From contig CH464491.1 in NCBI GenBank assembly GCA_000002445.1, positions 3,168,001 to 3,232,000 on the forward strand: a DNA stretch of 64,000 nt, written 5' to 3'. The notes under the pieces are model-generated. The model did no database searches, was not told where the DNA came from, and saw only the letters and a list, made by a program, of their open reading frames with translations. Shown piece after piece: positions 9,256 to 63,288 of this stretch. The DNA comes from Trypanosoma brucei (Eukaryota). The translations under genes were made by a program, and so were the position numbers. Position 1 is the stretch's first letter, and each line of letters opens with the position of its first letter.

Positions 9256-9308
9256 AAGGGTTGGAAATAATAATAATAATAATAATAATATATATATATA
9301 TATATATA
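9256..9308. repeat. (AAT)8 followed by (TA)n, about 12 units
   Basis: Direct read: aataataataataataataata then tatatatatatatatatatataat. Confidence 0.85.
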
Positions 9309-12300: not shown

Positions 12301-13764
12301 TTGCAACCATCATACCCTCGTGGATTGCATTGTTTCGTTGGCGTGGAGGTAACAAACCACATAAACGAGCCAAATGACTGCACATATAGCGGAAGGAAAT
12401 AAAACAAAGGAGAAAGTAAAGCAAATTAAAAAAAAGAGGGAGCGAGAAGGATTTAAAAGAAACATTTTTTTTTCTTAAAGATGAGTCGACTTCTACCATT
12501 CGTGTTTATCGATCCATATTTGTATATGTTTATTTATTTATTTGTATATACGAAAAGAAGATAAGGAATGGGGGAAAAGAGGCATGAAGAAGTGAGAAGA
12601 GGATGAGGAAGAGAAGGAAATAAAAGAAAAGAAAAGAAAAAAAAAGCGATAGAAAACAGAAAGAAAAAGGAAAAAGAAAAAAAAATGAAGAAAAGAGAAC
12701 AAGGTGCTGGTGTGCCGCGTACTTGAAATTCACACTGTTCCCGTTCTTTCACATCGAAGTTGGGAAACCAATAAAACAAGAGGTATAAATCATATCATAA
12801 TTATTACTGTTTGGAGATGACTTTCTTTTCTTTTCTTTTTGTTTTTCTCTTTTTTTTTTTTTTACCCCTCTCCCATTCAGCTTTTCTTTTGTGTACCTTT
12901 TCTTTACAGCACTCTGTGTTTCAACCGACCGGATAATGGAGACCAGCAAAAACAACCACAAAATGCGAGTAAAACCAGAGCAGCAAGAAAAGAAGCGAAA
13001 AAGACAGCGCCCATTTATGGGTTTATTTACTTTAAAATTAAAATATATATATATATATATATTATACTCACATATTTGTGTGGTGACGAAGGTAAGGAAA
13101 GGGGAAATTATTGCAAGTTGTTTATATGAAACTGGCAAACAAAAACTCTTTTTCTATCTTTTTTTTTTAAAAAAAAGAAAAAGAGAAGAGGGGAGAGGAG
13201 AGGAGAGGAGGATTTCAAAAAAAAAAAAGAAGCAAGTGCGTGTGCGCACGGATGGCTGGACGGACTTTAACACATGGTGCAACACGATTTGATTTTCAGT
13301 TTGCTTTTCATTTTCTTCGATCCGACAGATAACTGCTCCGTGGGAATGACTTGCTCTCTTTTTTTTTTTAATTATTATTATAATTATTATGATTTCGTTT
13401 CGTAAATGATTTCCACTTTCCCAGTCCCTGCTGCACTTCATATCCGCGCAACATTTTCTTTGTTTTGTTTTGCTTATTCTTACCCTTCTTGTTATCTTTG
13501 TTTTTTTTAAAATTATTGCTTATTTATATTAGTTTCTATAGGGAATAGTCATATAATTTAGTTGTTTGAGACTGTGAGTCACAAGGCAGCGCCGCTTGAA
13601 CTTTCCAGCATATTGAGATGAGGAACCTGCAGACCCACACATGAAAGGGGTAATATGATTCTTTTTTTAAAAAAAAATATATAAATATATTCTGCTTTTC
13701 ATCCAAGAATAATAATAATGAAAAAGAAAGGTGCAATCCTTTTTGTTTTCAAGGAAAGGTCAGT

Positions 13765-13837
13765 CAATTTTTCCTCTCTTTCTTTTTCGGTTTCTTCGTG
13801 TGCCTGTTTGTTTTTTATATTGTTGTTTTCACACCAG
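13765..13837 (+). promoter_or_regulatory. Polypyrimidine tract plus AG upstream of the EF-hand gene (probable SL acceptor region)
   Basis: ttcctctctttctttttcggtttcttcgtgtgcctgtttgttttttatattgttgttttcacaccag lies about 200 nt upstream of ATG 14045. Confidence 0.4.
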
Positions 13838-14044
13838 TTAACAAGGGCTTTGTGCTCCGCAAAGTTAGCATCATAAAGTAAGGCGATAGAATACAAAAGA
13901 AAAAAAAGCTCCATCAAGAAAAGAGCGGGAGGAAAAAAAAAGAAAAATTATACACCGAAGATATATAGAAAGGGGCCATAAGCCTCGCATATAGCAACAA
14001 ACAAGGAGGACAGACAAAAGGAAAAAAAAAGGGAGGACCAGGAT

Positions 14045-15808
14045 ATGGCGTTTCTCGTACAAGTAGCAGCGGATATATTCAATAATAAAGTGAACTTTGA
14101 GCTTAGCTTCCCGTCCAGACCCAGCATATCGGAACTGACGCGTTCGGCGGAAACTGCTTTCTCAAATGAAATTTCTCTTCGCCGACCGGACAATGTGCCA
14201 TCGCACAAATTTCATTCATCGAAGATCAAAATGTACGATGAGGAGCTCAACAAATGGGTGGATCTAATAAGGGAGGACCAGTTAACGGATTATTGTCAGC
14301 TTTATGTTTTCCAACCTCCAAATGAATGGCACAAGGAAAGCCAAAAGGAAATCCCCCCTGCAATGAAGCCACCGAGTTCCGGCCAACGACACTCCGCAGG
14401 TGGTTCCTTTTCACAGGGCTCACGTGTCACTCCTAATGGAAGCCTTTCCATGCAGGGGGCTCTCGCACCGTACAACGGGTCTCGCTCACCCGTTAGCCAC
14501 CGCAGTGAGTCGCAACAGGCTCGTCACGCTTCGTTCCACGGGAGTACCTCAAATGCGCTCGTGCCGCGTGCCCAGACAGATGTGTCGCAAGAAGAAAAAC
14601 TGCGTGTGCTATTCGCGGAACTCGATGTAAAGGGTAACCGTGTGCTCGACGTTGAGGACTTCCGACACGGTTTCACTGTGTTTAATCTCAACTTCAGCCC
14701 AGCTACGGTGGACGATCTCTTTGAAAAGGGTGACAGCAACCGGGACGGGCGGATTACCTTTTCAGAATTTGAGCGGTTCGGACGGCTCTATCCAATCATG
14801 ACGGATTGCCTCTATTTCCGTTCCAGGGCTTTTTGGGAAGAAGAACAAATCAGGCGCTCTATTCAAAATGAGCGACAGGCAGTGAGACAAGCGGAGCAAG
14901 CGGTGGAGCAGGCCCGACGAGCCCTTGAGGAGGCAGAAAATGAGACAGATGCCGCTAAGGATGCCGTCGCAACTGCGGATGCGGATCTCAAGGATCGAAC
15001 GGACCGTCTGCGGGACCTCACGAGGGACATGGACAACGCAAAGCGCGAGAAGGAGCGGGCCATCCGCGAGAAGAAGGATCGCGAGAAGGAACTCTTCGAG
15101 ATTCGTGAGCGTGAAAAGGAGCTTCGGAAAGACGCACAAGAGGTGGCTCGTGAGGCTGAGAAGCAGGACCGACGGGCGTTTTCTCTCGCTGGGGAAGCGA
15201 GTGCTGCCGATGACAAGGTTCGTGCCTTGGAGAAGGCCCTTGACGAGGCTCGTCGTGCCGCTGAGCGGGCGCACAACGCCGCAGATCAGGCTGCCAGAGA
15301 CGCTGATATCGTGAAACTCCGCATGCAAGATGCTACACGAGATGCCGAGGAGGTGGCACGGGAGGTTCCCCGGGCGGAGGACGCGGTGCGGGCCGCAGAG
15401 CACAACGTATCAGCAGCAGATCAAGGGGCTCGGGAACTGGAAGGAATGGGCCGTGTGCTTTCGCGGGAGATAGAAGAGGCTGGGCAGCGACGGGATCAGA
15501 GCGAAAAGGCAGTTGAGGAGGCGAGAGGTATGATGCATGTGAAAGAGCGTCAGTTGGAGGAAGCAAAACAGCACGTTTCGGAGAGGGAACACGCCGTAAG
15601 GCTTAAGGAAATCGAACTGGCTGATCAGCTGAAGCAGCGTGAACTCGTGTCACAGCACGAGAGGACACTTATAGAGCAGGAGCTTCGGCTACGCGAACAA
15701 AGAGACAGTTTAGAGGAGCGGGAGACGAAATTGATGTCAGAAGCCAGCAGCTTCCTGGGCAATCTCCGTACGCAGTTACACGGTGGGAGGTCCTATCCGC
15801 GAGATTAA
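14045..15808 (+). CDS. EF-hand calcium-binding plus long coiled-coil protein (587 aa) with a compact N-terminal domain
   Basis: Two EF-hand-like loops (DVKGNRVLDVEDF; DSNRDGRITFSEFERF), then about 300 aa of heptad E/R/K/A-rich coiled coil (REKERAIREKKDREKELFEIREREKELRKDAQE...). Intact ORF with coding-like composition. Confidence 0.7.
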   Translation: MAFLVQVAADIFNNKVNFELSFPSRPSISELTRSAETAFSNEISLRRPDNVPSHKFHSSKIKMYDEELNKWVDLIREDQLTDYCQLYVFQPPNEWHKESQKEIPPAMKPPSSGQRHSAGGSFSQGSRVTPNGSLSMQGALAPYNGSRSPVSHRSESQQARHASFHGSTSNALVPRAQTDVSQEEKLRVLFAELDVKGNRVLDVEDFRHGFTVFNLNFSPATVDDLFEKGDSNRDGRITFSEFERFGRLYPIMTDCLYFRSRAFWEEEQIRRSIQNERQAVRQAEQAVEQARRALEEAENETDAAKDAVATADADLKDRTDRLRDLTRDMDNAKREKERAIREKKDREKELFEIREREKELRKDAQEVAREAEKQDRRAFSLAGEASAADDKVRALEKALDEARRAAERAHNAADQAARDADIVKLRMQDATRDAEEVAREVPRAEDAVRAAEHNVSAADQGARELEGMGRVLSREIEEAGQRRDQSEKAVEEARGMMHVKERQLEEAKQHVSEREHAVRLKEIELADQLKQRELVSQHERTLIEQELRLREQRDSLEERETKLMSEASSFLGNLRTQLHGGRSYPRD

Positions 15809-32148: not shown

Positions 32149-34530
32149 ATGCCCTTCAGCAAAGCATGGCGGAGTGCCGTTTATCCTGATTTTAGGGAGC
32201 AGGGCGCGTATATTAACTACAAGGCAACGAAAGATACTTTGCATCGCATGAAGGAAGATATCGCGAACCCTGCAACGCCAGATGAATTGTACAATTCGCT
32301 GCTCATGCAAAAGGCAACTGTGTATAAGTGGTGTGAAAACAAGGTGAAGGAATTGCAAATGATGGCAGAAGCCCTCATGAAGGCATCGGATTACCTCTCA
32401 GAAGAAGAGACACCTACTAATATGAGTATGGTATTCAGTATGGTGGGGAGTAGTGAAGCGAAGTATCTTCCACCCAGTGATGCGAGGCGCGTGGCAGATG
32501 CAATCACGTATGAACTACTGCGTTTTGTTGAATGCCGTAATCTGAACACAGACACAATTGAGCACATTATTGCGCGTATGTATCGCTACGCCGTGCTCGG
32601 ACCCACCGGCGATCGGTGGAAGAATATTAACAAGGAATATGACTATCATGCGCTCTCCATTGACGAGATATTTTTTATGCTCTCAAAGGTGTACGAGCAC
32701 GTAAATGAGGTAGAGAGCATGCGGCGTGACGGTCGGTCAAGCATACCTTGTGGTACCGTTGGTTCTCAGGTGTTTGATCGTCGCTCTGTGAAGTACTGGG
32801 TTCACATGCAGGACCTACCATTTGTCATTGCCCGGATTATTCCGCATCTTCCTCTCAGTACCTTTCAAGACACCTACGCTATGAGTAAGGAGCGTGGTGT
32901 CCCGTTTACTTTGGGCTCCCCAATTAGCAGCGTGTATTATGACAATGACAAGTTCCTTCTTTATCATCGCCGTCTTGAACGACTTGACGGCGCTACACTC
33001 ATACGCATGCGATGGTACGGCCGTCCTCTCGATAGTGATTGGAACAAGTTGGAGTCAAAGGACAGCGTTTTCATGGAGATAAAAGTGCACCACGAGGCAT
33101 GGAGTGGGGAGCGCAGCAACAAACGACGTTTTGCCTTAAAGGAGAAGGACGTGGATGCATATATTCGCGGTGATTTAAGCTTAAAGCCAGCACTAGAGAA
33201 GCTGCGCTCGAAGAACGCATCCGAGGCAGAACAAGAGAAGTTTATGTCGCTTGCTACGGAGATCCTCACGAAGATACACGCTTATGACCTCAAACCAGTG
33301 CTGCGGACGCAGTGCCAGCGTGCAGCCTTTCAGTGTGGACTCGACCAGTCTATTCGCATTAGTATTGACACGGATCTGAGGGTCGTCGCAGAGGATTTCG
33401 GTCTGAGTCACCATTGGCGTTACAATGGTGCGGATGCCCCTCTTTCACACTTCCCCTATGCTGTTGTGGAAGTGAAGCTTCAATGTGCAGAAAACGAGCG
33501 TATCGCCCCGTGGATTGAAGAACTGATGAACTGTCGCTACATGGAGAGTGTGCCCAAGTTTAGCAAGTACGCACACGGCATTGCTACGCTTTATGGTCAC
33601 ACGCCATTTATCAAGATGGTTCCCTACTGGATGCCCCAGCTTGATATTGACATTCGCGCTTCCACAAAACCTGAATACAACCAGTGGGATCCTACCATTG
33701 GAATCGCATCTGGTTGCTGGGAGCGCACTACAGATCGGGTTATATTTGGAACAGGTCACGCCCAAACCCAGACAGTTGGTGCTTCGGAGGCACGGTTCCT
33801 TCCGCGTACCGATTGTTTGCGCACATATCAAAGGGTGCTGAAAGCCATCAAGCGTGGTGCGCATATGAACAGCGTCGCACCAACGATGTCACCCACTGAT
33901 AGGCCGCCTTCAGACGAAAAGAAACTGACAGAGCAGCAAGAGCTTGCACCTGTTGTGCAATATGATACAGACAGGCGGCACAAGGCCTATACGGCATTCC
34001 ACCTGTATCCTTACTGTGAAGACGGTGTAGAGTCGCTATGCTTTACGTCGACAGGTGGAAAACACGTTGCGGCGGAAGTGTTTTCTGGGCTTATTCCGTG
34101 GCAGACAGGTAAGCGCATCCGTGTTCCCCAAAAATATGATCCAAAAACCTTATTAACATCTGAGCGCTTCATGGTAAAGTGGGCCGAACAGGCGACGCGC
34201 GTAGGAGTTGTTGGTCTTGCTGTCATCCGTTTCGGAAATAGTATGAGTCTGCCGAATGACATGGTTGCGGTGCACTCATTCTGGCGTGCAAACTTTCACA
34301 TCGTGTTGGGTTCTTTGATGGTTGTGGTCGCGGAGTGCGTTTTGGTGTACGCGTACGTTACATTTAAGAGTCGATCACGTCGAGTCTACGCGCGAAGGAA
34401 GATCCGTTACGACGATCGGCGTGGCCCTGTAGCGTTAACATTTGTGATATTAGCCGTTATTCTTATAACTGTTATGATGCACGTTATGGTCCGGTACGGG
34501 CCTATGCTCACCGGAAGCGACACCTTCTGA
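32149..34530 (+). CDS. VTC4: Vacuolar transporter chaperone 4 (Vtc4)-type polyphosphate polymerase: N-terminal SPX domain, central VTC catalytic tunnel domain, and C-terminal three-TM DUF202-like region
   Basis: SPX-like N-terminus (MPFSKAWRSAVYPDFREQGAYINYKATKDTLHRMKE). VTC core with conserved basic tunnel residues (RIxxxxYDNDxxxLYxxRL...LIRMRWYG...FMEIKVH...KRRFALKEKDV...YIRGDL). C-terminal hydrophobic helices (HIVLGSLMVVVAECVLVYAYV; VALTFVILAVILITVMMHVMV). Established family: acidocalcisome/vacuolar polyP synthase. Confidence 0.85.
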   Translation: MPFSKAWRSAVYPDFREQGAYINYKATKDTLHRMKEDIANPATPDELYNSLLMQKATVYKWCENKVKELQMMAEALMKASDYLSEEETPTNMSMVFSMVGSSEAKYLPPSDARRVADAITYELLRFVECRNLNTDTIEHIIARMYRYAVLGPTGDRWKNINKEYDYHALSIDEIFFMLSKVYEHVNEVESMRRDGRSSIPCGTVGSQVFDRRSVKYWVHMQDLPFVIARIIPHLPLSTFQDTYAMSKERGVPFTLGSPISSVYYDNDKFLLYHRRLERLDGATLIRMRWYGRPLDSDWNKLESKDSVFMEIKVHHEAWSGERSNKRRFALKEKDVDAYIRGDLSLKPALEKLRSKNASEAEQEKFMSLATEILTKIHAYDLKPVLRTQCQRAAFQCGLDQSIRISIDTDLRVVAEDFGLSHHWRYNGADAPLSHFPYAVVEVKLQCAENERIAPWIEELMNCRYMESVPKFSKYAHGIATLYGHTPFIKMVPYWMPQLDIDIRASTKPEYNQWDPTIGIASGCWERTTDRVIFGTGHAQTQTVGASEARFLPRTDCLRTYQRVLKAIKRGAHMNSVAPTMSPTDRPPSDEKKLTEQQELAPVVQYDTDRRHKAYTAFHLYPYCEDGVESLCFTSTGGKHVAAEVFSGLIPWQTGKRIRVPQKYDPKTLLTSERFMVKWAEQATRVGVVGLAVIRFGNSMSLPNDMVAVHSFWRANFHIVLGSLMVVVAECVLVYAYVTFKSRSRRVYARRKIRYDDRRGPVALTFVILAVILITVMMHVMVRYGPMLTGSDTF

Positions 34531-35360: not shown

Positions 35361-36851
35361 ATGATTCGTTTCAGTTGGGTTCGCTTGTGTTCGAGCGCTA
35401 TGGCAGCGGCAGCCGCGTCACCGGACGTTCAGGCGATAACGAGGGCTCAGGCCATGCAGCTCGATGACCTTTCCCCACGGAAGATCGCTTCGATATTAGA
35501 TTCTTACATTGTAGGACAGGCAGAAGGGAAGCGAGCGGTGGCCATTTCACTTCGGAACCGCTGGCGCCGCCGTCAGATTGAGGACGAGGGATTGCGCCGT
35601 GATATTCTTCCGAAAAATATCCTGCTCGTTGGTCCTACCGGGGTTGGGAAGACAGAAATATCGCGTCGAATGGCGAAACTCACTGAGGCACCGTTTGTTA
35701 AAGTTGAGGCAACAAAGTACACCGAGGTTGGTTTTAAGGGGAAAGATGTGGAGAGCATCATTGAAGACTTATACAGTAACGCCAAAACAAAGGCTAAGCG
35801 CCGACTGGAAATCGAACGCGAGAAGGAGGCCCACGAACTGGCACTTGAGATAGTTTTCAATGGTTGGCATTCTTGTCGTTCAGCATCAGGCTCATTTGGT
35901 TCCTCAACCCGCAACAGTGGCAGCGGCGATAGCAGCGCAGAGGAAGATAAGAATTCGTCGTCAAGGGATAATGTTACGTTTGAGGAGTTTAAGGAGAAGT
36001 ACAAGACTCAGTTTAAAGATGACATGGTTGTGATAGACGTCACACAACAACCAAAAGGGAATACAAAGCCAAATGCCAGTATTAACAGCGTCGAGATGTT
36101 GTCAGTTGGGATCCTCCTTGGCTTAGGCTCTGAATCACGTGGGGTGAAGACGCGTGTGACGAAGCGTGTGGAGGAGGCGTTGCCGCTCGCGACGCAAGAG
36201 GCGCTAAGTCGTCTTGTGGACGAAACTCAAATCAGTGCACTTGCCCGCACACTGGCTGAACAGGATGGTGTGGTGTTCATTGATGAAATTGACAAGGTTG
36301 TGACGGAGCCGGCGAGCGCCAACGCTGACGTGAGCTCCACGGGAGTACAGCAGGATCTACTTCCGCTTATCGAAGGGTCTAATGTCACCTTAAAGGACGG
36401 ATCGCAGATAAGCACGGACAACATTCTTTTTATTTGTTCTGGTGCCTTTCACACTGTGAAAACCTCTGATATGATAGCGGAGTTGCAGGGCCGGCTGCCG
36501 GTCCGCGTGGAGATGCACGCGCTGAAGGAGGAGGATATCCGACGCATTCTCTGTGAACCTAAGTTTAACCTCTTACTTCAGCAAAAAGCGCTGATGAAGA
36601 CAGAAAACATAGATCTTGAGTTCACACCTGACGCTGTCGACGAGTTGGCACGGGTCACCACAAAGGTGAATGCGAACGCTCAAAACATTGGGGCGAGGCG
36701 ACTTCATACTGTTGTGGAGCGAGTAATGGATGAGTACAGTTTCAATTGCCAAGATTACGAAGGCAAAAAGGTCGTCATCGACGCTGAAGTTGTGCGGAAG
36801 GCTACAGGGTCACTGATGAATAACATTGACTTAGCAAAGTACATTCTCTGA
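35361..36851 (+). CDS. HslU2: HslU (ClpY-type) AAA+ ATPase subunit of the HslVU protease, with N-terminal mitochondrial-type presequence
   Basis: SPRKIASILDSYIVGQAEGKRAVAISLRNRWRR (HslU N-terminus). Walker A LLVGPTGVGKTEISRRMAKL. Walker B VVFIDEIDKV. I-domain insertion. C-terminal sensor region RRLHTVVERVMDEYSF. Paralog symbol rests on recollection that the kinetoplastid HslU2 sits next to VTC4 and needs confirmation. Confidence 0.85.
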   Translation: MIRFSWVRLCSSAMAAAAASPDVQAITRAQAMQLDDLSPRKIASILDSYIVGQAEGKRAVAISLRNRWRRRQIEDEGLRRDILPKNILLVGPTGVGKTEISRRMAKLTEAPFVKVEATKYTEVGFKGKDVESIIEDLYSNAKTKAKRRLEIEREKEAHELALEIVFNGWHSCRSASGSFGSSTRNSGSGDSSAEEDKNSSSRDNVTFEEFKEKYKTQFKDDMVVIDVTQQPKGNTKPNASINSVEMLSVGILLGLGSESRGVKTRVTKRVEEALPLATQEALSRLVDETQISALARTLAEQDGVVFIDEIDKVVTEPASANADVSSTGVQQDLLPLIEGSNVTLKDGSQISTDNILFICSGAFHTVKTSDMIAELQGRLPVRVEMHALKEEDIRRILCEPKFNLLLQQKALMKTENIDLEFTPDAVDELARVTTKVNANAQNIGARRLHTVVERVMDEYSFNCQDYEGKKVVIDAEVVRKATGSLMNNIDLAKYIL

Positions 36852-40970: not shown

Positions 40971-43481
40971 ATGAACAGGCATGCATTTGTGGAAATGACG
41001 CCATTGCGGCCCGAACCCACGGACGGGAGTCCAACTCGCGGGTCGCAGCCGGCGGCAGTCGGGCAGCCACAATTCTTTTCGAGGCGTGATGATATGTCGT
41101 ATATTTGGGGAACGGGGATAGCAGTGGAGGTATTTCGAGCAGAGTTTCAGCGTTTCCTTGAAACTTTTGAAATGCCACAGGATGTAGGCGCTGCTCCGGG
41201 TGCTGATGCCGGGGCGCACCGCGGTGGAACCAGGAATTTTTTTCTTCAGGAGCTCCTCCGCCTTAGATTGCAGAGGCGGAGTTTGTTTGAAATGGATCTT
41301 CAGCTATTTTGCCGTGCAGCCCCACGACTTTACCAACAGCTCATAGCACATCCCGTTGAGTGTCTCCAAATGATGGAGAGCGTTGCTGAGGAGGTTAGCG
41401 GGCGCCTCGTGGCCGCTGCAGGAACGCATCCCTCAATGCCCGGTGAAGATGAGTTTATACTTCGCATCGCCCCCAGGAACCATCCCGAAATTACGACTCT
41501 CCGTGGTTTGTCCACGCGGCAACTGGAGCAGCTAGTGTCCCTTCAGGGCATGGTGGTGCGTGTATCGAAGATTATTCCAGAAATACGCGTGGCACTCTTC
41601 CAGTGCTGGAGCTGTAATCACACTCGGCATAGTGTGGTGGATCGCGGTCGAATCTTCGAACCCACGCGCTGCGACAGTTGCGGCAAACAATATTCCTATA
41701 GAATCAATCATAACCTCTCAGTATTTGAAGATAAACAGTTAGTACGGCTTCAGGAGGCGCCTGAGCACCTCGCGGATGGTGATACACCGGTCACAATGTC
41801 CGTTGTAGTGTACGGTGATTTCGTTGACTCCATTGTTCCTGGTGACCGTGTTGTGGTGACGGGTATATATCGTGCATGGCCCGTTCGTCTCAACTCGAAC
41901 ACACGAATTATCCGGAGCATCTTTTCTACACACGTCGACGCCGTGCACATTGAACACCGCAGAGCTGGGCGGAATGCCTGGGCTGACCAGCAGAGACAAT
42001 CGGCGGGAGAGGACGAAGGGTTGCCTGAAGATCCTGCAGTGGTGGCACGGCACAACATGTTTCGGCATATTGCGGCTCGGCCAGATATTTATGATGTCAT
42101 ATTGAATAGCTTTGCCCGCACAATCTGGGGCAACGAAGATGTGAAGCGTGGCATCCTCCTGCAACTATTCGGTGGGACACGCAAAGAGCTCAAATGCGGT
42201 AGCTTCCGTTCTGAGATAAACATTATTCTGTGCGGAGACCCGGGCGTTGCGAAGTCCCAGTTGCTAACCCAGGTACATGAAATTGCTCCACGCGGAGTAT
42301 ACACCTCGGGCAAGGGTAGCAGTAGCGCCGGTCTCACTGCCTTCGTAGTTCAGAATAATGAGACGGGGGAGTTGGTGCTTGAGCCTGGTGCTCTTGTGTT
42401 GTCCGACCGCGGTCTGTGTTGTATTGATGAATTTGACAAGATGAACGAGGCTACGCGCTCCGTGTTGCACGAGGTGATGGAGCAGCAGACACTTTCGATA
42501 GCGAAAGCAGGGATTATTGCCCAACTAAACGCCCGCACATCTGTCCTAGCCGCAGCCAATCCTAAGGAGTCGCAGTGGAACGTGAACTTGAACGTAGTGG
42601 AGAATCTCCAAATCGAACCGACATTGCTCTCTCGCTTTGACCTTATTTTCCTTCTAATGGACCGGCACGATCCAGCGGAAGACCGGCGGTTGGCCTCACA
42701 TGTTCTGTCTCTCTTTATGGAGACCGACGAAAGTCGTGCATCAGGGAATGCCGCTGTGCCCACAGATGATGATGACGATGACGTGGATAACGCCAACGGT
42801 GGAGGTACGTCTGCGTCGAGGGGTCACTTAGCCACCAGTCGTGCCCCCATTTTACTTCAGCATGATGGTGAAGTGTACTTGGAGGGAACGGAGGAAAAAC
42901 CGTACATGCCTGCCCGCGTCCTTTCGCAGTACATCGCGTTCGCCCGTGAGAACATCCACCCAAGGCTGACTGGGGCATCGCACAAACAACTTGCCGCTTC
43001 ATATGTCGAAATGCGGCGTGCTCGTGGGAGTACCCGCACTGTTTCAGCAACCCTTCGCCAGCTCGAGTCCATGATTCGCCTTGCAGAAGCCCGCAGTAAA
43101 ATGCGGCTTGGCGACACGGTTAGCGTGGAGGACGTGCGTGAGGCTAAGTGGCTTATAAGTGCCGCCCTCAAGGAGGCGGCAACAGACCCAAGAACTGGGC
43201 GCATCAACCTTGACGTATTTAACGCACCAGATCCTACGCGACAGACGGTGGAAGGGAGTATGCTCCGCTTGGAGAAACTCATTGAGCAGCGGTACATCTC
43301 AGCAGGGCACACCACAGCAACCGTAAGCGAGTTGCGGCTCGCGTTGAATGAGTCCTTTGGTTCATCAATGCGTCCATTATCAATTGTTCAGTTCATGGAA
43401 CTGCTTGCCCTGATGGTCGGTGGTGATCACGTGAAATCCTTCACTGCCTCAACTGTAAGTTTCGCCGGTAGGCTTTCGTGA
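40971..43481 (+). CDS. MCM4: Minichromosome maintenance (MCM) replicative helicase subunit, MCM4-like
   Basis: N-terminal SYIWGTGIAVEVFRAEFQRFLETF matches the MCM4-specific IWGT(D/N)V...F..FL..F element. Zn finger CWSCNH...CDSCG. Walker A ILCGDPGVAKSQLL. Walker B/MCM box CCIDEFDKM. Arginine finger SRFDLIFLL. Confidence 0.8.
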   Translation: MNRHAFVEMTPLRPEPTDGSPTRGSQPAAVGQPQFFSRRDDMSYIWGTGIAVEVFRAEFQRFLETFEMPQDVGAAPGADAGAHRGGTRNFFLQELLRLRLQRRSLFEMDLQLFCRAAPRLYQQLIAHPVECLQMMESVAEEVSGRLVAAAGTHPSMPGEDEFILRIAPRNHPEITTLRGLSTRQLEQLVSLQGMVVRVSKIIPEIRVALFQCWSCNHTRHSVVDRGRIFEPTRCDSCGKQYSYRINHNLSVFEDKQLVRLQEAPEHLADGDTPVTMSVVVYGDFVDSIVPGDRVVVTGIYRAWPVRLNSNTRIIRSIFSTHVDAVHIEHRRAGRNAWADQQRQSAGEDEGLPEDPAVVARHNMFRHIAARPDIYDVILNSFARTIWGNEDVKRGILLQLFGGTRKELKCGSFRSEINIILCGDPGVAKSQLLTQVHEIAPRGVYTSGKGSSSAGLTAFVVQNNETGELVLEPGALVLSDRGLCCIDEFDKMNEATRSVLHEVMEQQTLSIAKAGIIAQLNARTSVLAAANPKESQWNVNLNVVENLQIEPTLLSRFDLIFLLMDRHDPAEDRRLASHVLSLFMETDESRASGNAAVPTDDDDDDVDNANGGGTSASRGHLATSRAPILLQHDGEVYLEGTEEKPYMPARVLSQYIAFARENIHPRLTGASHKQLAASYVEMRRARGSTRTVSATLRQLESMIRLAEARSKMRLGDTVSVEDVREAKWLISAALKEAATDPRTGRINLDVFNAPDPTRQTVEGSMLRLEKLIEQRYISAGHTTATVSELRLALNESFGSSMRPLSIVQFMELLALMVGGDHVKSFTASTVSFAGRLS

Positions 43482-54703: not shown

Positions 54704-57013
54704 ATGGGTATGGCAACACGTTCGCCTTCGCCACGGACAGTTCACTCCGGACAGCGGCAGGAGGAAGGGAATTGGGTGGCGTCTGTTCCCGGGGAGAGAA
54801 CTCAACTAGGGACATCGGATCACGTGAAGCTCCACCCAATTGATCGCTGCTCTCCCGATATCCCCATATCGCCGCCTCACACCTCAGCCGCTGATGTGAA
54901 TGATGTACCTTTAGCGGAGGTTGTTCACGGTGGGGGCTTCGGTGAAACTAATATTGCCGCCGATATTGGAGGTTGTGCTCGCTTAGTTGAGCCTGCAACT
55001 TTTTGTGTGGCCTGCGAAGACCGCCAAAGTACCACCCTTTTGTTAGCTCACAACCAGAACGCTTTGGACCACCAAAAGCAACAGCAACCCGTGGATGGTG
55101 AGGGACAGTGCCCACTCACCGCGCACGATGGGCCACCACGAGGCAGGTTGCGATTTGGTTTGCGTTCGTTGAGGGTTGTAACCGAAGAAAGTGGCACGAC
55201 GGCGAGGCGGTTCTTAAGACTTAGAAGACCACAAGTAGGTGCCGAGGAGCGGGCTGAACAGTCCATAGGTCCAGGAGACAGACATTTCGCTCCAGAAGAG
55301 GGAGAACATCCCCTTCAAGAAAAAACAAATTCACAATTCGACACCCAGCCCCTTCCCCCTATGCACACCAGCGTAACTACAGACGGATCATCCCGCACCA
55401 ACGAAAAGGTGGAGCATCCCGGTGGTACTGTGCAACACCAGCACACGACAAGGATGGCGGAGGCAGTAAATGCAAGCTTCAATGGCCCCACTCCGTCGCT
55501 TTCGGTGTGTAAATTGGGAAAGTCTTTGGGATCTGGTGTACTGCTCTCACCAACACCTACGACCCCAATATTGAAGAGAAATAATGGTGCGGCCAGCCGA
55601 AAGCGTCACAGCAAGGTGAATGTATTTCTGCCGCATAGTCCCGTTCCCATCGACTTCAGTTCGGTTACCACACATGTGGAGTCAAAGTACGAAGTTGGGA
55701 AAAAGATAAGTGAGGGCACGTACGGTGAAGTATACATTGGTCGTTGCCGAACTACGGGTGAGTATGTTGCGTTGAAGCGACTTAAAGTTTTAGAGGGGCT
55801 GGAGGGGTTTCCCATCACGTCTCTGCGAGAAGTGATCGCCCTTCAGCACATTAACAACGAGCGCCAAAACATTGCAGTACGTAACGGAAACGCAAGCGGC
55901 AGCAACCGTGCCAAAATGGACGCCATAGATGAAGTAGTTAGACTCCGTGACGTTTTACTGTCGAGCACCCACAACGATATATATCTTGTGTTCCCTTACG
56001 CGTCTTGCAGTTTGGCTGGGCTAATGCACCGCCGATTTCCATTCAGTGAGAAAGAGATTGCGTATATTTTCCGGAAAGTTATTACTGCTGTGAAAAAGTT
56101 ACATGAAATGGGTATCATCCACCGTGATGTCAAGGCTGACAATGTGCTCATTAATAGGGATGGCAGCGTCCAGCTTGGGGACTTCGGTTTGTGCGCCTTT
56201 GAGGGATGCGGCACGCGTGCCTTAACTCCCAGTCTTATTAACCTTAACTATCGCCCGCCTGAGATGTTACTCGGTGCCGTCGCATATAACGCAAAGGTTG
56301 ATATATGGTCTATTGGCTGCTTTCTAAGCCAAATGTTTCTGCGTGTGCCGCCATTTGCCTGCGTTCGGCCGAAAGCAGAATTCGACGGAGCGGGCGCTGG
56401 CAACGCAAAGGTGGACCCGCATCCCAAAGAGCCGCAGCAAAAACAGAAGTTAAAACAGCAGGGGTATAGGGTGCAAGCGGAAACAGAACTGGCGCAACTA
56501 TCTCTTATAACAGAGGTGTTGGGCCCGCTTGGCGGTGACCTTGATGAAGCTTTCCCACCGGCGCAGTGTCGAAACGTGTCGCTATTACGTGAGGTACGCG
56601 CATCTCTAACTAGCTGTAACTCACAATCAGCGTTAAGGGCGTCTATGGCTTCTCTTTTTGAACCAAGCCATCTTTACTCTCAGTACAGGGGCTTCCGCTC
56701 GTGGTTCATCGCCACTGCTGAGCGCCGCCGTCGTTCCCCAACTTATCCAGCGCCGTCGCCGGAGTGTCTCGACGTGCTCACTGCAATATTTCAGCTGGAT
56801 CCGCGGAAACGGCCGACGGCGGCCCAATTGCTGGAAATGCCTTTCTTTGACCTTAGCCGCGCGGTGTCGTCTCCCGCCCGACGGTCGTATGCTGCTTATA
56901 CTTACGCTGAAGTTGAGGTAGAGAAGGCGGAGCTGTTAATAAGAGAAGAAATGGCTGAGAAATTACAGAGGTACGAGGGCAGTCACCTTTTGCCTTATCC
57001 AAGCGCTGCGTAA
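54704..57013 (+). CDS. CRK12: Cyclin-dependent (cdc2-related) protein kinase of PITSLRE/CDK11-12 type, with about 330 aa N-terminal extension and kinase inserts. Consistent with the CRK12 class.
   Basis: GxGxxG ISEGTYGEVY, VAIK-like VALKRL, cyclin-binding helix GFPITSLREV, HRDVKADNVLI, DFGLC, WSIGC. Symbol assigned from the PITSLRE helix, architecture and synteny recollection; unconfirmed. Confidence 0.75.
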   Translation: MGMATRSPSPRTVHSGQRQEEGNWVASVPGERTQLGTSDHVKLHPIDRCSPDIPISPPHTSAADVNDVPLAEVVHGGGFGETNIAADIGGCARLVEPATFCVACEDRQSTTLLLAHNQNALDHQKQQQPVDGEGQCPLTAHDGPPRGRLRFGLRSLRVVTEESGTTARRFLRLRRPQVGAEERAEQSIGPGDRHFAPEEGEHPLQEKTNSQFDTQPLPPMHTSVTTDGSSRTNEKVEHPGGTVQHQHTTRMAEAVNASFNGPTPSLSVCKLGKSLGSGVLLSPTPTTPILKRNNGAASRKRHSKVNVFLPHSPVPIDFSSVTTHVESKYEVGKKISEGTYGEVYIGRCRTTGEYVALKRLKVLEGLEGFPITSLREVIALQHINNERQNIAVRNGNASGSNRAKMDAIDEVVRLRDVLLSSTHNDIYLVFPYASCSLAGLMHRRFPFSEKEIAYIFRKVITAVKKLHEMGIIHRDVKADNVLINRDGSVQLGDFGLCAFEGCGTRALTPSLINLNYRPPEMLLGAVAYNAKVDIWSIGCFLSQMFLRVPPFACVRPKAEFDGAGAGNAKVDPHPKEPQQKQKLKQQGYRVQAETELAQLSLITEVLGPLGGDLDEAFPPAQCRNVSLLREVRASLTSCNSQSALRASMASLFEPSHLYSQYRGFRSWFIATAERRRRSPTYPAPSPECLDVLTAIFQLDPRKRPTAAQLLEMPFFDLSRAVSSPARRSYAAYTYAEVEVEKAELLIREEMAEKLQRYEGSHLLPYPSAA

Positions 57014-58633: not shown

Positions 58634-61213
58634 ATGATGCGGTTCACTAGGGATGGAGCCGTGGGCAACATGCAATCAGACAAAAGTCGGAGGGTTCTCT
58701 CGTGCATTCTTTTTCTCTGCTTTCTCGGCTTGGGTGCTCTCATTGCATTTGCGACGATACCGTTTTCCGTACTTGACGGTCGAAGTGACAAGAAGCAGAG
58801 CGATTTGGTGCGCATAGCTGTGGATGAAACCAATTGGTGGTCTGAAAATATGCGCCTTCGAGTCATCGAGTCTGCGGCTGCAGCGCGAGCTATTGAGGGA
58901 TTTGTTATTGGTGAAATTGATAATATGCCCCCTTGGAAGGGTGGGTTAGAGCAGCGTGCACTTGGATGGTCGTTTGAGCGGTTTCCTTACGTGGCAGCGG
59001 CGATGTTTCGTAATGTACGGAACAACACAGGCACGGTTGTCATGCTTGCCCCTGGTGGTGTCGTCTCTCAAACGTTTCCAAACACCGAGTCCGTTTTAGA
59101 GTATGATTTTTTCGAATCTGGAAATGGAATCGGGGTCGCAGCTGCGGAGAGGATGGCGGAAAGAGGAGGTTTTGAATTGTTCGGTCCCGTCCTCCGTCGT
59201 GTTCCCGTCCCTAACGCAAGTTGGCAGTTATTGATTTGCAGCGCTATACACAACGCAACGAGCGGTGACCCAGTATCCGTCGCCAACTTTTGGGGATTTA
59301 CCGTTGTTGTGAAGGATTTGATGGGGTTGCTGGATGTCGGGGCGTTTGAAGAACGAATGAAGGAGCTTGAGATGAATTACCTTGTCTATATAACTGATGA
59401 CGCAAACAACACCATCCCTGTCACCACCTCACTGCGTAATAACTTAACAACTGCCGAGATTGAGAAATTTACCGGAGGTTGCTACAATCGACCAGTGCTA
59501 CCGCAGGTCGGGCATTTGTTTATGTGTGTGCGCAGTGCCGCGATGATTGAAAAGCACTCGAGGTCGACGGTGGTACTACTTGTGGTGGGTTGTGTGTTCA
59601 TCTCCCTCATTGCATTTGTGTGTGGTGTAATGGTGGTGCTGCCGTGCTTGCGCGAGTTCGACAGTCGTATGAATGCCCCTAAAACTGTGCCGTTTGTGAT
59701 GACTATTGTTGGCCCTTGCAATGCTGAGCGTTTGTTTGAGTTAGCCCCATCGGCTGCGTTTCCTGTATTGGAGAAGTATGCAAAGTTGCAGAAAGCAGTT
59801 ATCACAAACAATCACGGTTATGTTGGCTTGCAAGTACACCCTTACACCGCAACATTCGTCACTCGCGATGTGGACACAGCCATAGAAACTTGTTTTCAAC
59901 TGCTAAAAGGGGTACAGAAGAAGCATTTGGATGAACCACTCAAGAAATGGTTGGGTGCCGACGGCGAACTGTCCATCGCCGCCGCTATACATTGGTGTGC
60001 AGATGCGTATATACGCGTAGAGACAGTGAACGGCAGCATTCGATACGAGGGAAATGATGTTAAGTATTGCGAGCGCATGTGGATGTTTGTCCCACCGAAT
60101 AAGGTGACGATAAGTCAGCATGCCAAGGACAATATCCGCAGTCCTTCGACAGAGGTGTGCACCACTCAAATTGGCTCTGTTTTCTTTCGTGGTGTGAAGG
60201 AGAAACAAGCACTCTTTAATGTGACGCGTGTCAATGGGGATGAGTTGCAAACCTTCAAGGACTCAACAGTGCCTCCGTCGAGGATATTTGGCAGCGCAGA
60301 GATTGAGCAAGCAGAATATGAGGAAACACCAAATGCAGGGTTCATACCCGTTAGCATTCAAACGAATACACGAGGTACCGGTGGCTGTGAGATGCCACCC
60401 AGTTCTCCTAACCTTCATAAGAAAAAATTTAAGGATCGAGCATCACATTACTGCTGCTCCCGTGATCAGGGGGAGCATGGGACCCATCGAAATCCCCTCG
60501 CTTTCCCTGGTGGTGGTGATGAGGTTCTGCCGCGTACTGTGGCGTTCGCATCCGACCCCGACAATGGCAGGGTTGGCGCCGAAGACGTTGAAATTGGATT
60601 GAAGTTCATCTACCCTCGGGATCACCACGTAAATCCGCACATACCGACTGGGAGTCGTTTCCGTCTGGCAAATGATGACGTCACTCATGGTTATGCTGCG
60701 GCCAGTAGTGACAAAAACGTGTCAAAGGCAACGAGCTCTGGGAATAGCCCAGTTACTGATTTTCACACGATGGATGAGTTGGCGTGTGTCAGCGTGACCA
60801 GTAAGGGGGACTTCATTACTGAAGCGCTCATGCGTCCGTGGATACCGAATGCACTGAACACGCACTTTCGTGTGTTGTTTGAGCAATATTCCCTTTTCCT
60901 CGATTTTAGTTATGAGTCGGTTCGTACCGTTATTTTTTATTTCTACATAGCATATAAAGAACTTTTAAAGCCCCTTGCGGGGCCGGAGCGAACGAATTTG
61001 TTTAATCGCTTTGTTATCGCATTTGGCGTGCCACCGCAGAGCGTCTTGGAGGCTCTTGCCGTTCGTTGTGCGTTGCGCCACATTCAGCAGCTGGAAGGCA
61101 TACGTACAATGTTATGGCACTCGGAGCAAGAGCGCCTACAGCCGTCTCAATGCGCAAATGCAGAGGACACAAAACGAGAGGGGGTTTCACATGTAGTGGA
61201 GGGGCGAATATAA
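58634..61213 (+). CDS. Receptor-topology membrane protein (signal-anchor/TM, about 300 aa ectodomain, second TM) with cytoplasmic degenerate class-III nucleotidyl cyclase homology domain (candidate pseudo-cyclase) plus long C-terminal tail
   Basis: TM1 VLSCILFLCFLGLGALIAFATIPFSVL. TM2 VVLLVVGCVFISLIAFVCGVMVVLPCL. Cytoplasmic block VPFVMTIVGPCNAERLFE...FPVLEKYAKLQKAVITNNHGYVGLQVHPYTATFVTRD...AIETCFQLLKGV...LSIAAAIHWCADAYIRVETVNGSIRYEGNDVKYCERMWMFVPPNKVTISQHA is co-linear with the trypanosome adenylate cyclase catalytic core (VTLIFTDIESST...VKTVGDSFMIAS...LRVRVGIHTG...YYG...N.AAR...G.V..S). The two metal-binding Asp positions are replaced (G-P-C and H-P-Y), so the domain is degenerate. The alignment was done by eye and is uncertain. 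Confidence 0.5.
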   Translation: MMRFTRDGAVGNMQSDKSRRVLSCILFLCFLGLGALIAFATIPFSVLDGRSDKKQSDLVRIAVDETNWWSENMRLRVIESAAAARAIEGFVIGEIDNMPPWKGGLEQRALGWSFERFPYVAAAMFRNVRNNTGTVVMLAPGGVVSQTFPNTESVLEYDFFESGNGIGVAAAERMAERGGFELFGPVLRRVPVPNASWQLLICSAIHNATSGDPVSVANFWGFTVVVKDLMGLLDVGAFEERMKELEMNYLVYITDDANNTIPVTTSLRNNLTTAEIEKFTGGCYNRPVLPQVGHLFMCVRSAAMIEKHSRSTVVLLVVGCVFISLIAFVCGVMVVLPCLREFDSRMNAPKTVPFVMTIVGPCNAERLFELAPSAAFPVLEKYAKLQKAVITNNHGYVGLQVHPYTATFVTRDVDTAIETCFQLLKGVQKKHLDEPLKKWLGADGELSIAAAIHWCADAYIRVETVNGSIRYEGNDVKYCERMWMFVPPNKVTISQHAKDNIRSPSTEVCTTQIGSVFFRGVKEKQALFNVTRVNGDELQTFKDSTVPPSRIFGSAEIEQAEYEETPNAGFIPVSIQTNTRGTGGCEMPPSSPNLHKKKFKDRASHYCCSRDQGEHGTHRNPLAFPGGGDEVLPRTVAFASDPDNGRVGAEDVEIGLKFIYPRDHHVNPHIPTGSRFRLANDDVTHGYAAASSDKNVSKATSSGNSPVTDFHTMDELACVSVTSKGDFITEALMRPWIPNALNTHFRVLFEQYSLFLDFSYESVRTVIFYFYIAYKELLKPLAGPERTNLFNRFVIAFGVPPQSVLEALAVRCALRHIQQLEGIRTMLWHSEQERLQPSQCANAEDTKREGVSHVVEGRI

Positions 61214-62400: not shown

Positions 62401-63288
62401 TTGTGCTCTTTACGAGAGGAGTGTGAAGTGTCGTGGACTGTTGTTGTGGAGATGCTACGAAATTACGACACACCCAGTCAGTTGCCCCTCTCGTGCTCAC
62501 CACAATCATTGGCCACTCCCATATCTATTGGTGTGTCCTCCTCTTTTAGCAGCGTTCAAGCACTTGTGAGTGTGGAAGGAGGAGGTTCTGATGAAGGGAC
62601 GTACAGACCCCAGCAGCAGGCATCACAAGTAATTCAACCCCCTTCCCCGCGGTCTCCCATTGTAACTGTGCTGAATTGGCCAAGAGATGGATCTTTGGGA
62701 GCTAGTGGTGCACAAGTTGGCGATGGACTTGCTGCGCCGGTAAATCTCCCCACACCCTCGTTACTGTTGGATCATATGAGGAGTTCTGGGTACCCAGTTA
62801 TTGCTGTTGTCAGTCCTTCGGCATCTCGTCGCGACTGTACACGGGATGGTGGAAACATTGACAGCCGTAGTATAGCCTTTTCTTTTGATCAGTTTCTTCT
62901 AGAAGGTCAACTACCATCCCCCACCCCCTCCCAATTCAGCACACGCTCAACACCTATTCGCGGTGTTGCGGCGAAAGAAGTGGGATGTTTGCTTCTGGAA
63001 GCAGGTCATCCCACAGATTGTGTCATTTGTATGTGCACGTACGGCGATGATCCAACTCCTAGTGAGAACCCTCATCAAAAGGTTGAAGCTACGGATGTTA
63101 GTGGGGAAAATGTTAACAACACAACCACACAGTCGTCACCGACGGCGAAAGAGACCAACAAAGAAGTTGTGCCACCCATCAGTAGTGTGAAGTTAAGCTG
63201 TAGTCATGAGTTCCACCGCGACTGCCTGCAACGGTGGCTTTTAAACAACAATTTGTGTCCAATTTGCAGGCGAGAAGTTGACTCCTAA
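62401..63288 (+). CDS. RING-H2 finger protein (C3H2C3) with S/P-rich N-terminal region. An alternative start is at 62452.
   Basis: C-terminal CVICMCTYGDDP...SCSHEFHRDCLQRWLLNNNLCPICRREV is the classic RING-H2 arrangement. Confidence 0.65.
   Translation: MCSLREECEVSWTVVVEMLRNYDTPSQLPLSCSPQSLATPISIGVSSSFSSVQALVSVEGGGSDEGTYRPQQQASQVIQPPSPRSPIVTVLNWPRDGSLGASGAQVGDGLAAPVNLPTPSLLLDHMRSSGYPVIAVVSPSASRRDCTRDGGNIDSRSIAFSFDQFLLEGQLPSPTPSQFSTRSTPIRGVAAKEVGCLLLEAGHPTDCVICMCTYGDDPTPSENPHQKVEATDVSGENVNNTTTQSSPTAKETNKEVVPPISSVKLSCSHEFHRDCLQRWLLNNNLCPICRREVDS

What the first reader, a model, noticed from the sequence alone, without database searches (positions are those of the whole stretch)
58634..61213. 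Receptor-like two-TM protein with a catalytically degenerate nucleotidyl cyclase homology domain (candidate pseudo-cyclase)
The topology (N-terminal signal anchor, about 300 aa ectodomain, TM, cytoplasmic domain) resembles trypanosome receptor-type adenylate cyclases. The cytoplasmic block is co-linear, segment by segment, with the class-III cyclase core. However, the positions of the two metal-coordinating aspartates read G-P-C and H-P-Y instead of F-T-D-I-E and G-D-S, and the ectodomain is much shorter than in the ESAG4/GRESAG4 family. A dead cyclase fold attached to a receptor architecture would suggest a regulatory or scaffolding partner of active cyclases, or a cyclic-nucleotide-independent sensor. 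It is followed by a roughly 350 aa tail of unknown function. This is the most system-like oddity in the window.
Basis: inference. Interest (0 to 1): 0.65.

Follow-up and report, generated by a model that had tools for sequence, protein, structure and literature searches.

The report
CHASE receptor with dead cyclase domain
This Trypanosoma brucei gene encodes a membrane receptor with an outside sensor domain of the plant cytokinin-receptor type (CHASE) and an inside adenylate cyclase domain that has lost every residue needed to make cAMP, so it probably signals without making a cyclic nucleotide.

Summary
Window 58634-61213 (+) encodes an 859-aa protein identical to T. brucei TREU927 XP_829294.1 / Q382U9. 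NCBI calls it "hypothetical protein, conserved" and UniProt calls it "CHASE domain-containing protein".

- **Layout:** TM1 (21-45), a roughly 266-aa glycosylation-rich ectodomain, TM2 (312-338), a cyclase-homology domain (346-533), a disordered linker (552-723) and a conserved four-helix C-terminal domain (724-836).
- **Sequence evidence for the cyclase domain:** Pfam finds nothing in the protein itself. A profile built only from degenerate family members hits the T. brucei GRESAG4.3 and 4.1 catalytic domains (E 2e-5 and 3e-5).
- **Catalytic residues:** Both metal aspartates are replaced (G360, P403), as are the substrate Lys and Asp (L399, R470) and the transition-state Asn (K477). Only the Arg (R481) remains.
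- **Family pattern:** 45 of 48 members lack at least one of the five catalytic residues. Three relatives (two Euglena longa, one metagenomic) keep the full set, so the ancestor was probably an active CHASE-cyclase.

I class it as a new variant of a known kind. The mechanism is inferred, not shown.

The parts
58634..61213 (+). Complete gene, 859 codons plus stop. It is T. brucei XP_829294.1 / Q382U9. The gene ID Tb927.11.12320 is inferred from gene order.
   Evidence: ORF. Exact identity to P0071. Gene-order inference from BILBO1, VTC4, HslU and CRK12.
58694..58768 (+). TM1 (residues 21-45), an N-terminal signal anchor. The short N-terminus (1-20) carries K17, R19 and R20 and is cytoplasmic by the positive-inside rule.
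   Evidence: Hydropathy. The model shows one continuous helix 12-94.
58769..59566 (+). Ectodomain (residues 46-311) with a CHASE-type fold: a long stalk helix followed by two PAS-like alpha/beta modules. It has 5 N-glycosylation sequons.
59567..59647 (+). TM2 (residues 312-338). It is followed by the conserved juxtamembrane motif A348-P349-K350 and by P353.
   Evidence: The same 'APKEP' motif precedes beta-1 in GRESAG4 (alignment).
59669..60232 (+). Class III cyclase homology domain (residues 346-533), catalytically degenerate.
59711..59719 (+). G360-P361-C362, in place of the first metal-binding Asp motif (D-I-E of F-T-D-I-E-S-S-T).
   Evidence: Alignments. Gly in 38 of 48 family members and Asp in only 4.
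59828..59845 (+). L399 in place of the substrate-binding Lys, and H402-P403-Y404 in place of G-D-S (the second metal-binding Asp).
   Evidence: Pro in 29 of 48 members at the Asp2 position.
59990..59998 (+). H453-W454-C455 on strand beta-4 at the base of the dimerisation arm. This is the most conserved motif of the family (H 46/48, W 38/48, C 45/48).
60041..60076 (+). R470 (in place of the adenine-specifying Asp), K477 (in place of the transition-state Asn) and R481 (transition-state Arg retained).
60287..60802 (+). Disordered Ser/Gly/Pro-rich linker (residues 552-723). It is poorly conserved, 17% identical to T. congolense.
   Evidence: pLDDT below 50. Identity by domain. Composition.
60803..61141 (+). 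Conserved C-terminal four-helix domain (residues 724-836) with the motif PLAGPERTNLFNRFVIAFGVP...LEALAVRCALR. It is specific to this family and is the best-conserved part of the protein (80% identical to T. congolense).
   Evidence: No Pfam or PDB sequence match. A weak counterpart exists in the active CHASE-cyclases.

Best explanation
The gene encodes a type of sensor receptor conserved across trypanosomatids. Its parts, from outside to inside, are as follows.
- An extracellular or lumenal CHASE ligand-binding domain held between two transmembrane helices.
- About 15 residues after TM2, a class III cyclase-homology domain (CHD) of the trypanosome GRESAG4 type.
- A disordered linker.
- A conserved four-helix C-terminal domain.

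**Shown.** The CHD keeps the cyclase fold but has lost both metal-binding aspartates, both substrate-specifying residues and the transition-state asparagine. By every known rule for class III cyclases it therefore cannot make cAMP or cGMP. It is a pseudo-cyclase.

**Shown.** The family descends from a CHASE-cyclase lineage that still has members with the full catalytic set, in Euglena longa and in one metagenomic sequence.

**Inferred mechanism.** As in active class III cyclases, the CHD probably forms a dimer whose geometry is set by the ligand state of the CHASE domains through TM2. In this protein the output would not be catalysis. It would be a change in a binding surface, either on the CHD dimer itself or on the tethered C-terminal helical domain, which recruits or releases a cytoplasmic partner. 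Pairing with active receptor cyclases is a possible variant. Residue logic predicts that such a heterodimer would be inactive, which would make the protein an inhibitor.
For: **Identity and layout.**

**CHD homology.**
- A profile built only from degenerate members finds GRESAG4.3 and 4.1 as the two best PDB chains, at E 2.1e-5 and 3.3e-5 across the full domain.
- The full-family profile gives E 1.1e-22.
- Three relatives found by the family profile carry Pfam Guanylate_cyc at E 2e-25 to 2e-22. Two of them also carry CHASE, in the same order.
- The AlphaFold2 model built from 48 sequences has pLDDT above 90 over most of residues 20-535 and 725-835.
- Foldseek gives 176 PDB matches at E<=1e-3. 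All 50 listed are class III cyclases.

**Loss of catalysis.** MAFFT and HMMER alignments agree on D->G360, K->L399, D->P403, D->R470 and N->K477, with R481 kept.

**Not decay.**
[quoted passage not shown] The ectodomain is 39% and the linker 17%.
- The replacement residues are themselves conserved, Gly in 38/48 and Pro in 29/48.
- The family is present in Trypanosoma, Leptomonas, Angomonas and Phytomonas.

**CHASE.**

**C-terminal domain.** It accompanies nearly every degenerate member.
Against: - No experimental data on activity, ligand, localisation or partners were available.
- Dimerisation, transmembrane coupling and the output role of the C-terminal domain are inferences from how class III cyclases work in general.
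- The window protein itself has no Pfam match to CHASE or Guanylate_cyc even at E<=10. Both assignments therefore rest on family profiles and a predicted structure.
- The retained Arg481 and the new basic residues R470 and K477 could mean the pocket still binds a phosphate-bearing ligand. That would be a different mechanism.
Confidence: 0.8

Rival explanations
1. Regulatory partner of active receptor adenylate cyclases. The dead CHD heterodimerises with the catalytic domains of ESAG4/GRESAG4-type cyclases and so controls cAMP output. This would resemble the pseudo-symmetric C1/C2 or sGC alpha/beta dimers, or act as a dominant-negative subunit.
For: The closest solved structures to the CHD are the T. 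brucei GRESAG4 catalytic domains. From established knowledge, class III cyclases act as dimers with active sites at the interface. The beta-4/beta-5 arm motif H-W-C-x-D-A is the most conserved part of the CHD, which is compatible with a conserved interface.
Against: Identity to GRESAG4 is only about 15%, so a shared interface is not evident. A heterodimer could not form a competent site. The pseudo-CHD lacks the Asp pair on one face and Lys, Asp and Asn on the other, so only inhibition is possible. The family has its own sensor domain and its own conserved C-terminal domain, which suggests an autonomous receptor. No interaction data were available.
Confidence: 0.2
2. Non-catalytic ligand-binding CHD. 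The remodelled pocket binds a nucleotide or another phosphate-bearing small molecule as an allosteric signal. The precedents are the forskolin site of mammalian cyclases and the class III cyclase-like ATP-binding protein of P. aeruginosa.
Against: The phosphate-binding loop after beta-1 is rewritten (I-E-S-S-T becomes P-C-N-A-E), with Pro at the first position in 25 of 48 members. Both metal ligands are gone. Positions 470 and 477 vary across the family (R/L/Q/V and L/V/S), so there is no conserved basic pocket.
Confidence: 0.15
3. Ordinary divergent but still active adenylate cyclase.
For: The fold is fully preserved with high model confidence. The transition-state Arg is kept.
Against: Five of the six canonical catalytic or substrate residues are replaced, including both metal-binding Asp by Gly and Pro, which cannot ligate metal. 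The same family contains three members with the complete canonical set, so the alignment registers correctly.
Confidence: 0.03

Closest known systems
Trypanosome receptor-type adenylate cyclases (ESAG4/GRESAG4; catalytic domains PDB 1fx2, 1fx4)
   Same: The cytoplasmic domain has the same class III cyclase fold, and these are the best sequence and structure matches in the PDB. Shared features are the juxtamembrane 'APK(E)P' motif before beta-1, the L-W...P..M helix motif and the short distance from the TM helix to the CHD.
   Different: The catalytic residues are lost. The ectodomain is a 266-aa CHASE domain between two TM helices, whereas these cyclases have a large ectodomain and a single TM (from general knowledge). 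The gene is found once in this window and sits in a core polycistronic unit, unlike that large multigene family. It has its own conserved C-terminal helical domain.
CHASE-domain adenylate cyclases (the 'C' of CHASE), here represented by Euglena longa EP00668_P016793 and P036964 and a metagenomic relative
   Same: Same order of parts: TM, CHASE, TM, CHD, then a C-terminal helical motif. They are detectably homologous over the whole length (family profile residues 27-531, E 5e-13).
   Different: Those proteins keep F-T-D-I-E-S-S-T, K-T-x-G-D and D-Y-x-G-N-D-V-N...A-R and pass Pfam Guanylate_cyc. The T. brucei protein and 44 other family members examined lack at least one of these residues.
RDK1 (Tb927.11.14070), T. 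brucei repressor-of-differentiation kinase
   Same: According to PMC8519429 (HHpred), RDK1 has a bacterial-type extracellular sensor domain, a TM, then a region with a cyclase catalytic-domain fold. That makes it a second kinetoplastid receptor with a cryptic cyclase-like domain missed by Pfam.
   Different: RDK1 ends in a protein kinase domain, whereas this protein ends in a helical domain with no known fold family. RDK1 was not retrieved by the family profile (no Pkinase hit among the 58 of 70 hits that were Pfam-scanned). Direct homology was not tested.
Plant and bacterial CHASE cytokinin receptors (AHK4, PDB 3t4j; Xanthomonas PcrK, PDB 6k62)
   Different: Their output is a histidine kinase. 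The ligand of the trypanosome protein is unknown, and conservation of the cytokinin-pocket residues was not examined.
Non-catalytic cyclase-homology domains (mammalian AC C1/C2 pseudo-site, sGC alpha subunit, P. aeruginosa class III AC-like ATP-binding protein 6yii)
   Different: In those cases either a partner domain restores one active site or the domain is soluble. Here the degenerate CHD sits in a stand-alone CHASE receptor and no catalytic partner is known.

Membership tests
Class III nucleotidyl cyclase homology domain (Pfam PF00211 Guanylate_cyc), fold and homology | Significant sequence-profile similarity to the family | tested here: inconclusive
   Pfam gives no match for the window protein, whole or in pieces, at E<=10. 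A profile of 30 degenerate relatives does hit GRESAG4.3 and 4.1 at E 2.1e-5 and 3.3e-5 over the full domain. Three relatives pass PF00211 at 80-90 bits against a cut-off of 21.9. Homology is therefore shown transitively, not by the curated model itself.
Class III nucleotidyl cyclase homology domain (Pfam PF00211 Guanylate_cyc), fold and homology | Beta-alpha-alpha-beta-beta-alpha-beta cyclase fold | tested here: met
Catalytically active class III adenylate/guanylate cyclase | Two metal-binding aspartates (beta-1 F-x-D-I, and the beta-2/3 G-D) | tested here: not met
   G360 and P403 occupy these positions.
Catalytically active class III adenylate/guanylate cyclase | Substrate-specifying Lys and Asp (or Glu/Cys in guanylate cyclases) | tested here: not met
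   L399 and R470 occupy these positions.
Catalytically active class III adenylate/guanylate cyclase | Transition-state-stabilising Asn and Arg | tested here: not met
   Asn is replaced by K477, while Arg is retained as R481.
Catalytically active class III adenylate/guanylate cyclase | Measured cAMP or cGMP synthesis | not testable with these tools
   This needs an enzyme assay.
CHASE domain (Pfam PF03924 / PROSITE CHASE) | Match to the curated CHASE profile | tested here: inconclusive
   The window protein has no Pfam match. Orthologues give sub-threshold matches in the equivalent region: T. cruzi E 0.012, Angomonas E 0.0026, T. melophagium E 0.07. Distant family members pass the cut-off, at 35.9-37.7 bits against 25. 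UniProt names Q382U9 'CHASE domain-containing protein'.
CHASE domain (Pfam PF03924 / PROSITE CHASE) | Extracytoplasmic location between two TM helices, with a stalk helix followed by two PAS-like modules | tested here: met
ESAG4/GRESAG4 receptor adenylate cyclase family | Large N-terminal ectodomain, single TM helix and an active CHD | tested here: not met
   This protein has a 266-aa CHASE ectodomain, two TM helices and a dead CHD. The description of the family's architecture comes from general knowledge and PMC7719234.

The most novel reading that the evidence does not exclude
Trypanosomatids keep a single, deeply conserved CHASE receptor that has been converted from a cAMP-producing enzyme into a pseudoenzyme. 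It would sense an extracellular small molecule (CHASE ligands elsewhere include cytokinins, which are adenine derivatives, and peptides). It would signal through a new output, the conserved C-terminal helical domain, independently of cyclic nucleotides. That would be a previously unrecognised receptor pathway in parasites that have very few known surface receptors.
Probability: 0.3. Interest if true: 0.75.

Novelty: new variant of a known kind. Interest (0 to 1): 0.55.

Why it matters
**Why a new receptor would matter.** Trypanosomes lack G-protein-coupled receptors and histidine kinases (PMC8519429, PMC6324907). They also have very few transmembrane protein kinases. How they sense hosts and vectors is an open question that has been centred on the receptor adenylate cyclases, whose ligands are unknown. 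This gene adds a separate receptor class, conserved across trypanosomatids, with a recognisable ligand-binding domain type. It is present once in this window.

**Why the dead cyclase domain matters.** The domain is under clear constraint, so it may be an example of a signalling enzyme turned into a pseudoenzyme transducer. Active relatives still exist in Euglena, which gives a natural before-and-after pair for comparison.

**What the annotation is missing.** The large phylogenetic survey of trypanosomatid cyclases considered only two classes (PMC7719234). Current annotation ('hypothetical protein, conserved' or 'CHASE domain-containing protein') does not record the cyclase-homology domain.

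**Practical note.** The protein should not be counted as a cAMP source.

Tried and rejected
- **Pfam on the window protein.** The whole protein, three excised segments and the T. congolense orthologue all gave no match at E<=10.
- **PDB sequence search with the single protein.** Nothing found.
- **First homologue search with the single protein.** It returned only the protein itself and T. congolense, because of the word-index cap.
- **First AlphaFold run.** It used 3 sequences and was useless, pLDDT 28.
- **C-terminal domain identity.**
  - There was no Pfam match in the window protein's excised C-terminal segment or in ten members that matched mainly through the C-terminal domain.
  - There was no significant PDB sequence match (RNF25 at E 0.63 is noise).
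  - The fold family therefore remains unassigned.
- **C-terminal-only hits.** Most of them (P0028, P0030, P0038, P0058, P0062) are fragments that begin inside the CHD, not a separate protein family.
- **Iterated HMM for the C-terminal domain.** It gave E 9e-18 for the active cyclase P0054. That value is circular, because near-identical cluster mates had entered the profile. Only the first-round values count (E 6e-4 and 1e-3 in an 89-sequence set), together with P0067 at E 9e-4.
- **AlphaFold-database fold search.** The library was not available.
- **Literature.** No paper in the library mentions Q382U9, XP_829294, EAN80182, TCIL3000_11_12950 or Tb927.11.12320. None links a CHASE domain with trypanosomatid genes.
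- **Paralogues.** There is no second copy in the window (tblastn).
Full report
**What is there**

Window 58634-61213 (+) is an intact ORF of 859 codons. Its product is identical, residue for residue, to T. brucei brucei TREU927 XP_829294.1 / EAN80182.1 / UniProt Q382U9. The same sequence is also recorded for T. equiperdum.

NCBI calls it 'hypothetical protein, conserved'. UniProt's automatic name is 'CHASE domain-containing protein'. No source names a cyclase domain.

All large ORFs of the window lie on the + strand, as expected for a kinetoplastid polycistronic unit. Recognisable neighbours are:
- BILBO1 (14045-15808)
- a VTC-domain protein (32149-34530)
- an HslU-like AAA ATPase (35361-36851)
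- an MCM (40971-43481)
- a 769-aa protein kinase directly upstream (54704-57013)
- a RING-finger protein downstream (62401-63288)

The literature gives CRK12 the ID Tb927.11.12310. I assume the upstream kinase is CRK12, and I recall from memory that BILBO1, VTC4 and HslU2 are Tb927.11.12150, 12220 and 12230. Counting genes from those anchors, I infer that the target is Tb927.11.12320. This is an inference from gene order, not a look-up. No paper in the searchable library mentions that ID.

**Anatomy**

Hydropathy gives two transmembrane spans, residues 21-45 and 312-338. The 266 residues between them carry 5 N-x-S/T sequons, 1.9 per 100 aa against 0.6 per 100 aa in the cytoplasmic part. Basic residues flank the cytoplasmic ends of both spans. 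The N-terminus and everything after residue 338 are therefore cytoplasmic, and residues 46-311 are extracellular or lumenal.

Alignment with the T. congolense orthologue (47% identity overall) and with more distant orthologues shows very uneven conservation:

| Region | Identity to T. congolense |
|---|---|
| Ectodomain | 39% |
| Cytoplasmic domain 346-533 | 69% |
| Linker | 17% |
| C-terminal domain 724-836 | 80% |

The same ranking holds for T. vivax, T. melophagium, T. cruzi, Leptomonas, Angomonas and Phytomonas.

**Is the cytoplasmic block a cyclase domain?**

Curated models do not see it. Pfam returns nothing for the protein, for three excised segments, or for the T. congolense orthologue at E<=10. 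A single-sequence search of PDB sequences is also empty.

An exhaustive profile search of 1.84 billion representative proteins found 70 relatives. I aligned 48 of them and scanned them against Pfam. Six match CHASE and four match Guanylate_cyc.
- The metagenomic protein P0054 has CHASE at 120-207 and Guanylate_cyc at 325-500 (89.7 bits).
- Euglena longa P0055 has CHASE plus Guanylate_cyc (79.9 bits).
- Euglena longa P0067 has Guanylate_cyc (86.3 bits).
- The family profile aligns with P0054 across residues 27-531, which covers both domains.

As a stricter test I built a profile from 30 family members that all lack the catalytic residues and searched all PDB sequences. The two best chains of the whole PDB are the T. 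brucei GRESAG4.3 and GRESAG4.1 catalytic domains, at E 2.1e-5 and 3.3e-5. The GRESAG4.3 alignment spans the whole domain (profile 7-190 to chain 3-216). With the full family profile these rise to E 1.1e-22 and 6.9e-22.

**Structure**

With only three sequences AlphaFold2 failed (pLDDT 28). With the 48-sequence alignment the model has pLDDT above 90 over most of residues 20-535 and 725-835, and below 50 for 552-723.
- Foldseek against the PDB gives 176 matches at E<=1e-3. All 50 listed are class III cyclases, led by 1fx4.
- The model's ectodomain is a long stalk helix continuous with TM1, followed by two alpha/beta modules. That is the CHASE / double-PAS layout.
- Pfam CHASE is the only family that recurs, below threshold, in the trypanosomatid orthologues. 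It passes the cut-off in distant members.

**Catalytic residues**

A MAFFT alignment of the 48 CHDs and the independent HMMER alignment to GRESAG4 give the same register. Against the active relatives (L-I-F-T-D-I-E-S-S-T, Y-E-V-K-T-V-G-D-S-F, G-Y-D-Y-Y-G-N-D-V-N-Y-S-A-R), the T. brucei protein reads as follows.

| Canonical role | T. brucei residue |
|---|---|
| First metal Asp | G360 (then P361, C362) |
| Substrate Lys | L399 |
| G-D-S with the second metal Asp | H402-P403-Y404 |
| Adenine-specifying Asp | R470 |
| Transition-state Asn | K477 |
| Transition-state Arg | R481 (retained) |

Across the 48 sequences, only the three proteins that pass Pfam with high scores have the complete D/K/D/N/R set. 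The other 45 lack at least one of these residues, and most lack both Asp.

The replacements are themselves conserved: Gly in 38/48 at the first Asp and Pro in 29/48 at the second. The most conserved motif of the domain is H453-W454-C455, at the base of the beta-4/beta-5 arm.

Loss of both metal ligands is incompatible with two-metal catalysis in every characterised class III cyclase (established knowledge). A heterodimer with an active cyclase could not rescue a site, because the complementary face (Lys, Asp, Asn) is also lost.

**C-terminal region**

Residues 552-723 are a disordered, poorly conserved Ser/Gly/Pro-rich linker. Residues 724-836 form a four-helix domain that is the best-conserved part of the protein.

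An HMM of that domain finds it at the C-terminus of nearly all degenerate family members. Most hits that seemed to have only this domain are truncated gene models that start inside the CHD.

It has no Pfam or PDB sequence match.

A weak but aligned counterpart (P-L-x-x-x-x-R-x-x-I/L...F/W-G-V/L...L-E-H-L-A/S-V/L-R) is present in the active CHASE-cyclases. The first-round E-values are 6e-4 and 1e-3 for cluster mates of P0054, in a set of 89 sequences. P0067 gives E 9e-4 with the iterated model. The much stronger iterated value for P0054 is circular and I disregard it.

The domain therefore probably predates the loss of catalysis.

**Interpretation**

What is shown:
- The protein is a two-TM CHASE receptor fused to a class III cyclase-homology domain of the trypanosome type.
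- That domain has lost the catalytic machinery while remaining under strong constraint.
- The family is conserved across trypanosomatids (Trypanosoma, Leptomonas, Angomonas, Phytomonas).
- Relatives with the full catalytic set exist in Euglena longa.

What is inferred: ligand binding to CHASE is transmitted through TM2 and the 15-residue 'APK' juxtamembrane segment to a CHD dimer. The dimer's rearrangement, instead of assembling active sites, changes a protein-binding surface or the availability of the tethered C-terminal domain.

Rival readings remain open but are less supported. These are an inhibitory partner of receptor cyclases, and a nucleotide or phosphate-ligand pocket built around R481. 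An active divergent cyclase is very unlikely.

**Comparison with what is known**

In T. brucei, RDK1 has been reported by HHpred to combine a bacterial-type sensor, a TM helix and a cyclase-like region with a protein kinase domain (PMC8519429). That is the closest described analogue, but it was not retrieved by this family's profile.

The broad survey of trypanosomatid cyclases recognises only receptor cyclases and oxygen-sensing cyclases (PMC7719234).

I found no paper that mentions this protein or links CHASE to trypanosomatid genes. The library is incomplete and TriTrypDB and TrypTag could not be consulted.

**Verdict**

The ectodomain is now identified as CHASE, the tail is resolved into a linker plus a conserved domain, and the evolutionary origin is placed in an active euglenozoan CHASE-cyclase lineage.

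It is a new variant of a known kind. It is of moderate interest generally and of real interest for trypanosome signalling. Function and mechanism remain untested.

Noticed in passing
window 4350-14040: About 9.7 kb lies between a DEAH-box helicase gene (8-3277) and BILBO1 (14045-15808). Its GC content is 0.31-0.37, against about 0.48-0.52 elsewhere. It has no ORF of 200 aa or more and only short T/A-rich microrepeats. This is unusually long and AT-rich for an intergenic region inside a polycistronic unit. Its nature is unknown.
   Followed up: partly
window 54704-57013 (+): The gene directly upstream encodes a 769-aa protein kinase with the kinase domain at residues 329-715. By gene order and the IDs used in the papers, it is CRK12 (Tb927.11.12310), a validated drug target. 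In a polycistronic unit there is no reason to think the adjacency is functional.
   Followed up: partly
window 62401-63288 (+): The gene directly downstream encodes a 295-aa protein with a C-terminal RING-H2 finger. I infer it to be Tb927.11.12330. An ORF with that ID is listed as 7.5-fold up after CTR9 RNAi in PMC3332058.
   Followed up: no
P0054 residues 566-644; P0067 residues 560-605 (relatives, not in the window): The active CHASE-cyclases from Euglena longa and a metagenome carry a weak version of the family's C-terminal helical-domain motif. The domain therefore seems older than the loss of catalysis.
   Followed up: partly
Angomonas deanei proteins CAD2220513 (P0090/P0011 cluster) and CAD2220515 (P0017): This species has two family members with accession numbers two apart on the same 590-kb contig, which suggests a local duplication. 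The T. brucei window holds only one copy.
   Followed up: no
P0007 (1880 aa), P0022, P0027: Some database entries contain the C-terminal domain twice, and P0007 contains it at 599-709 and 1697-1806. These are probably fused or duplicated gene models from assemblies, not real tandem-domain proteins.
   Followed up: no
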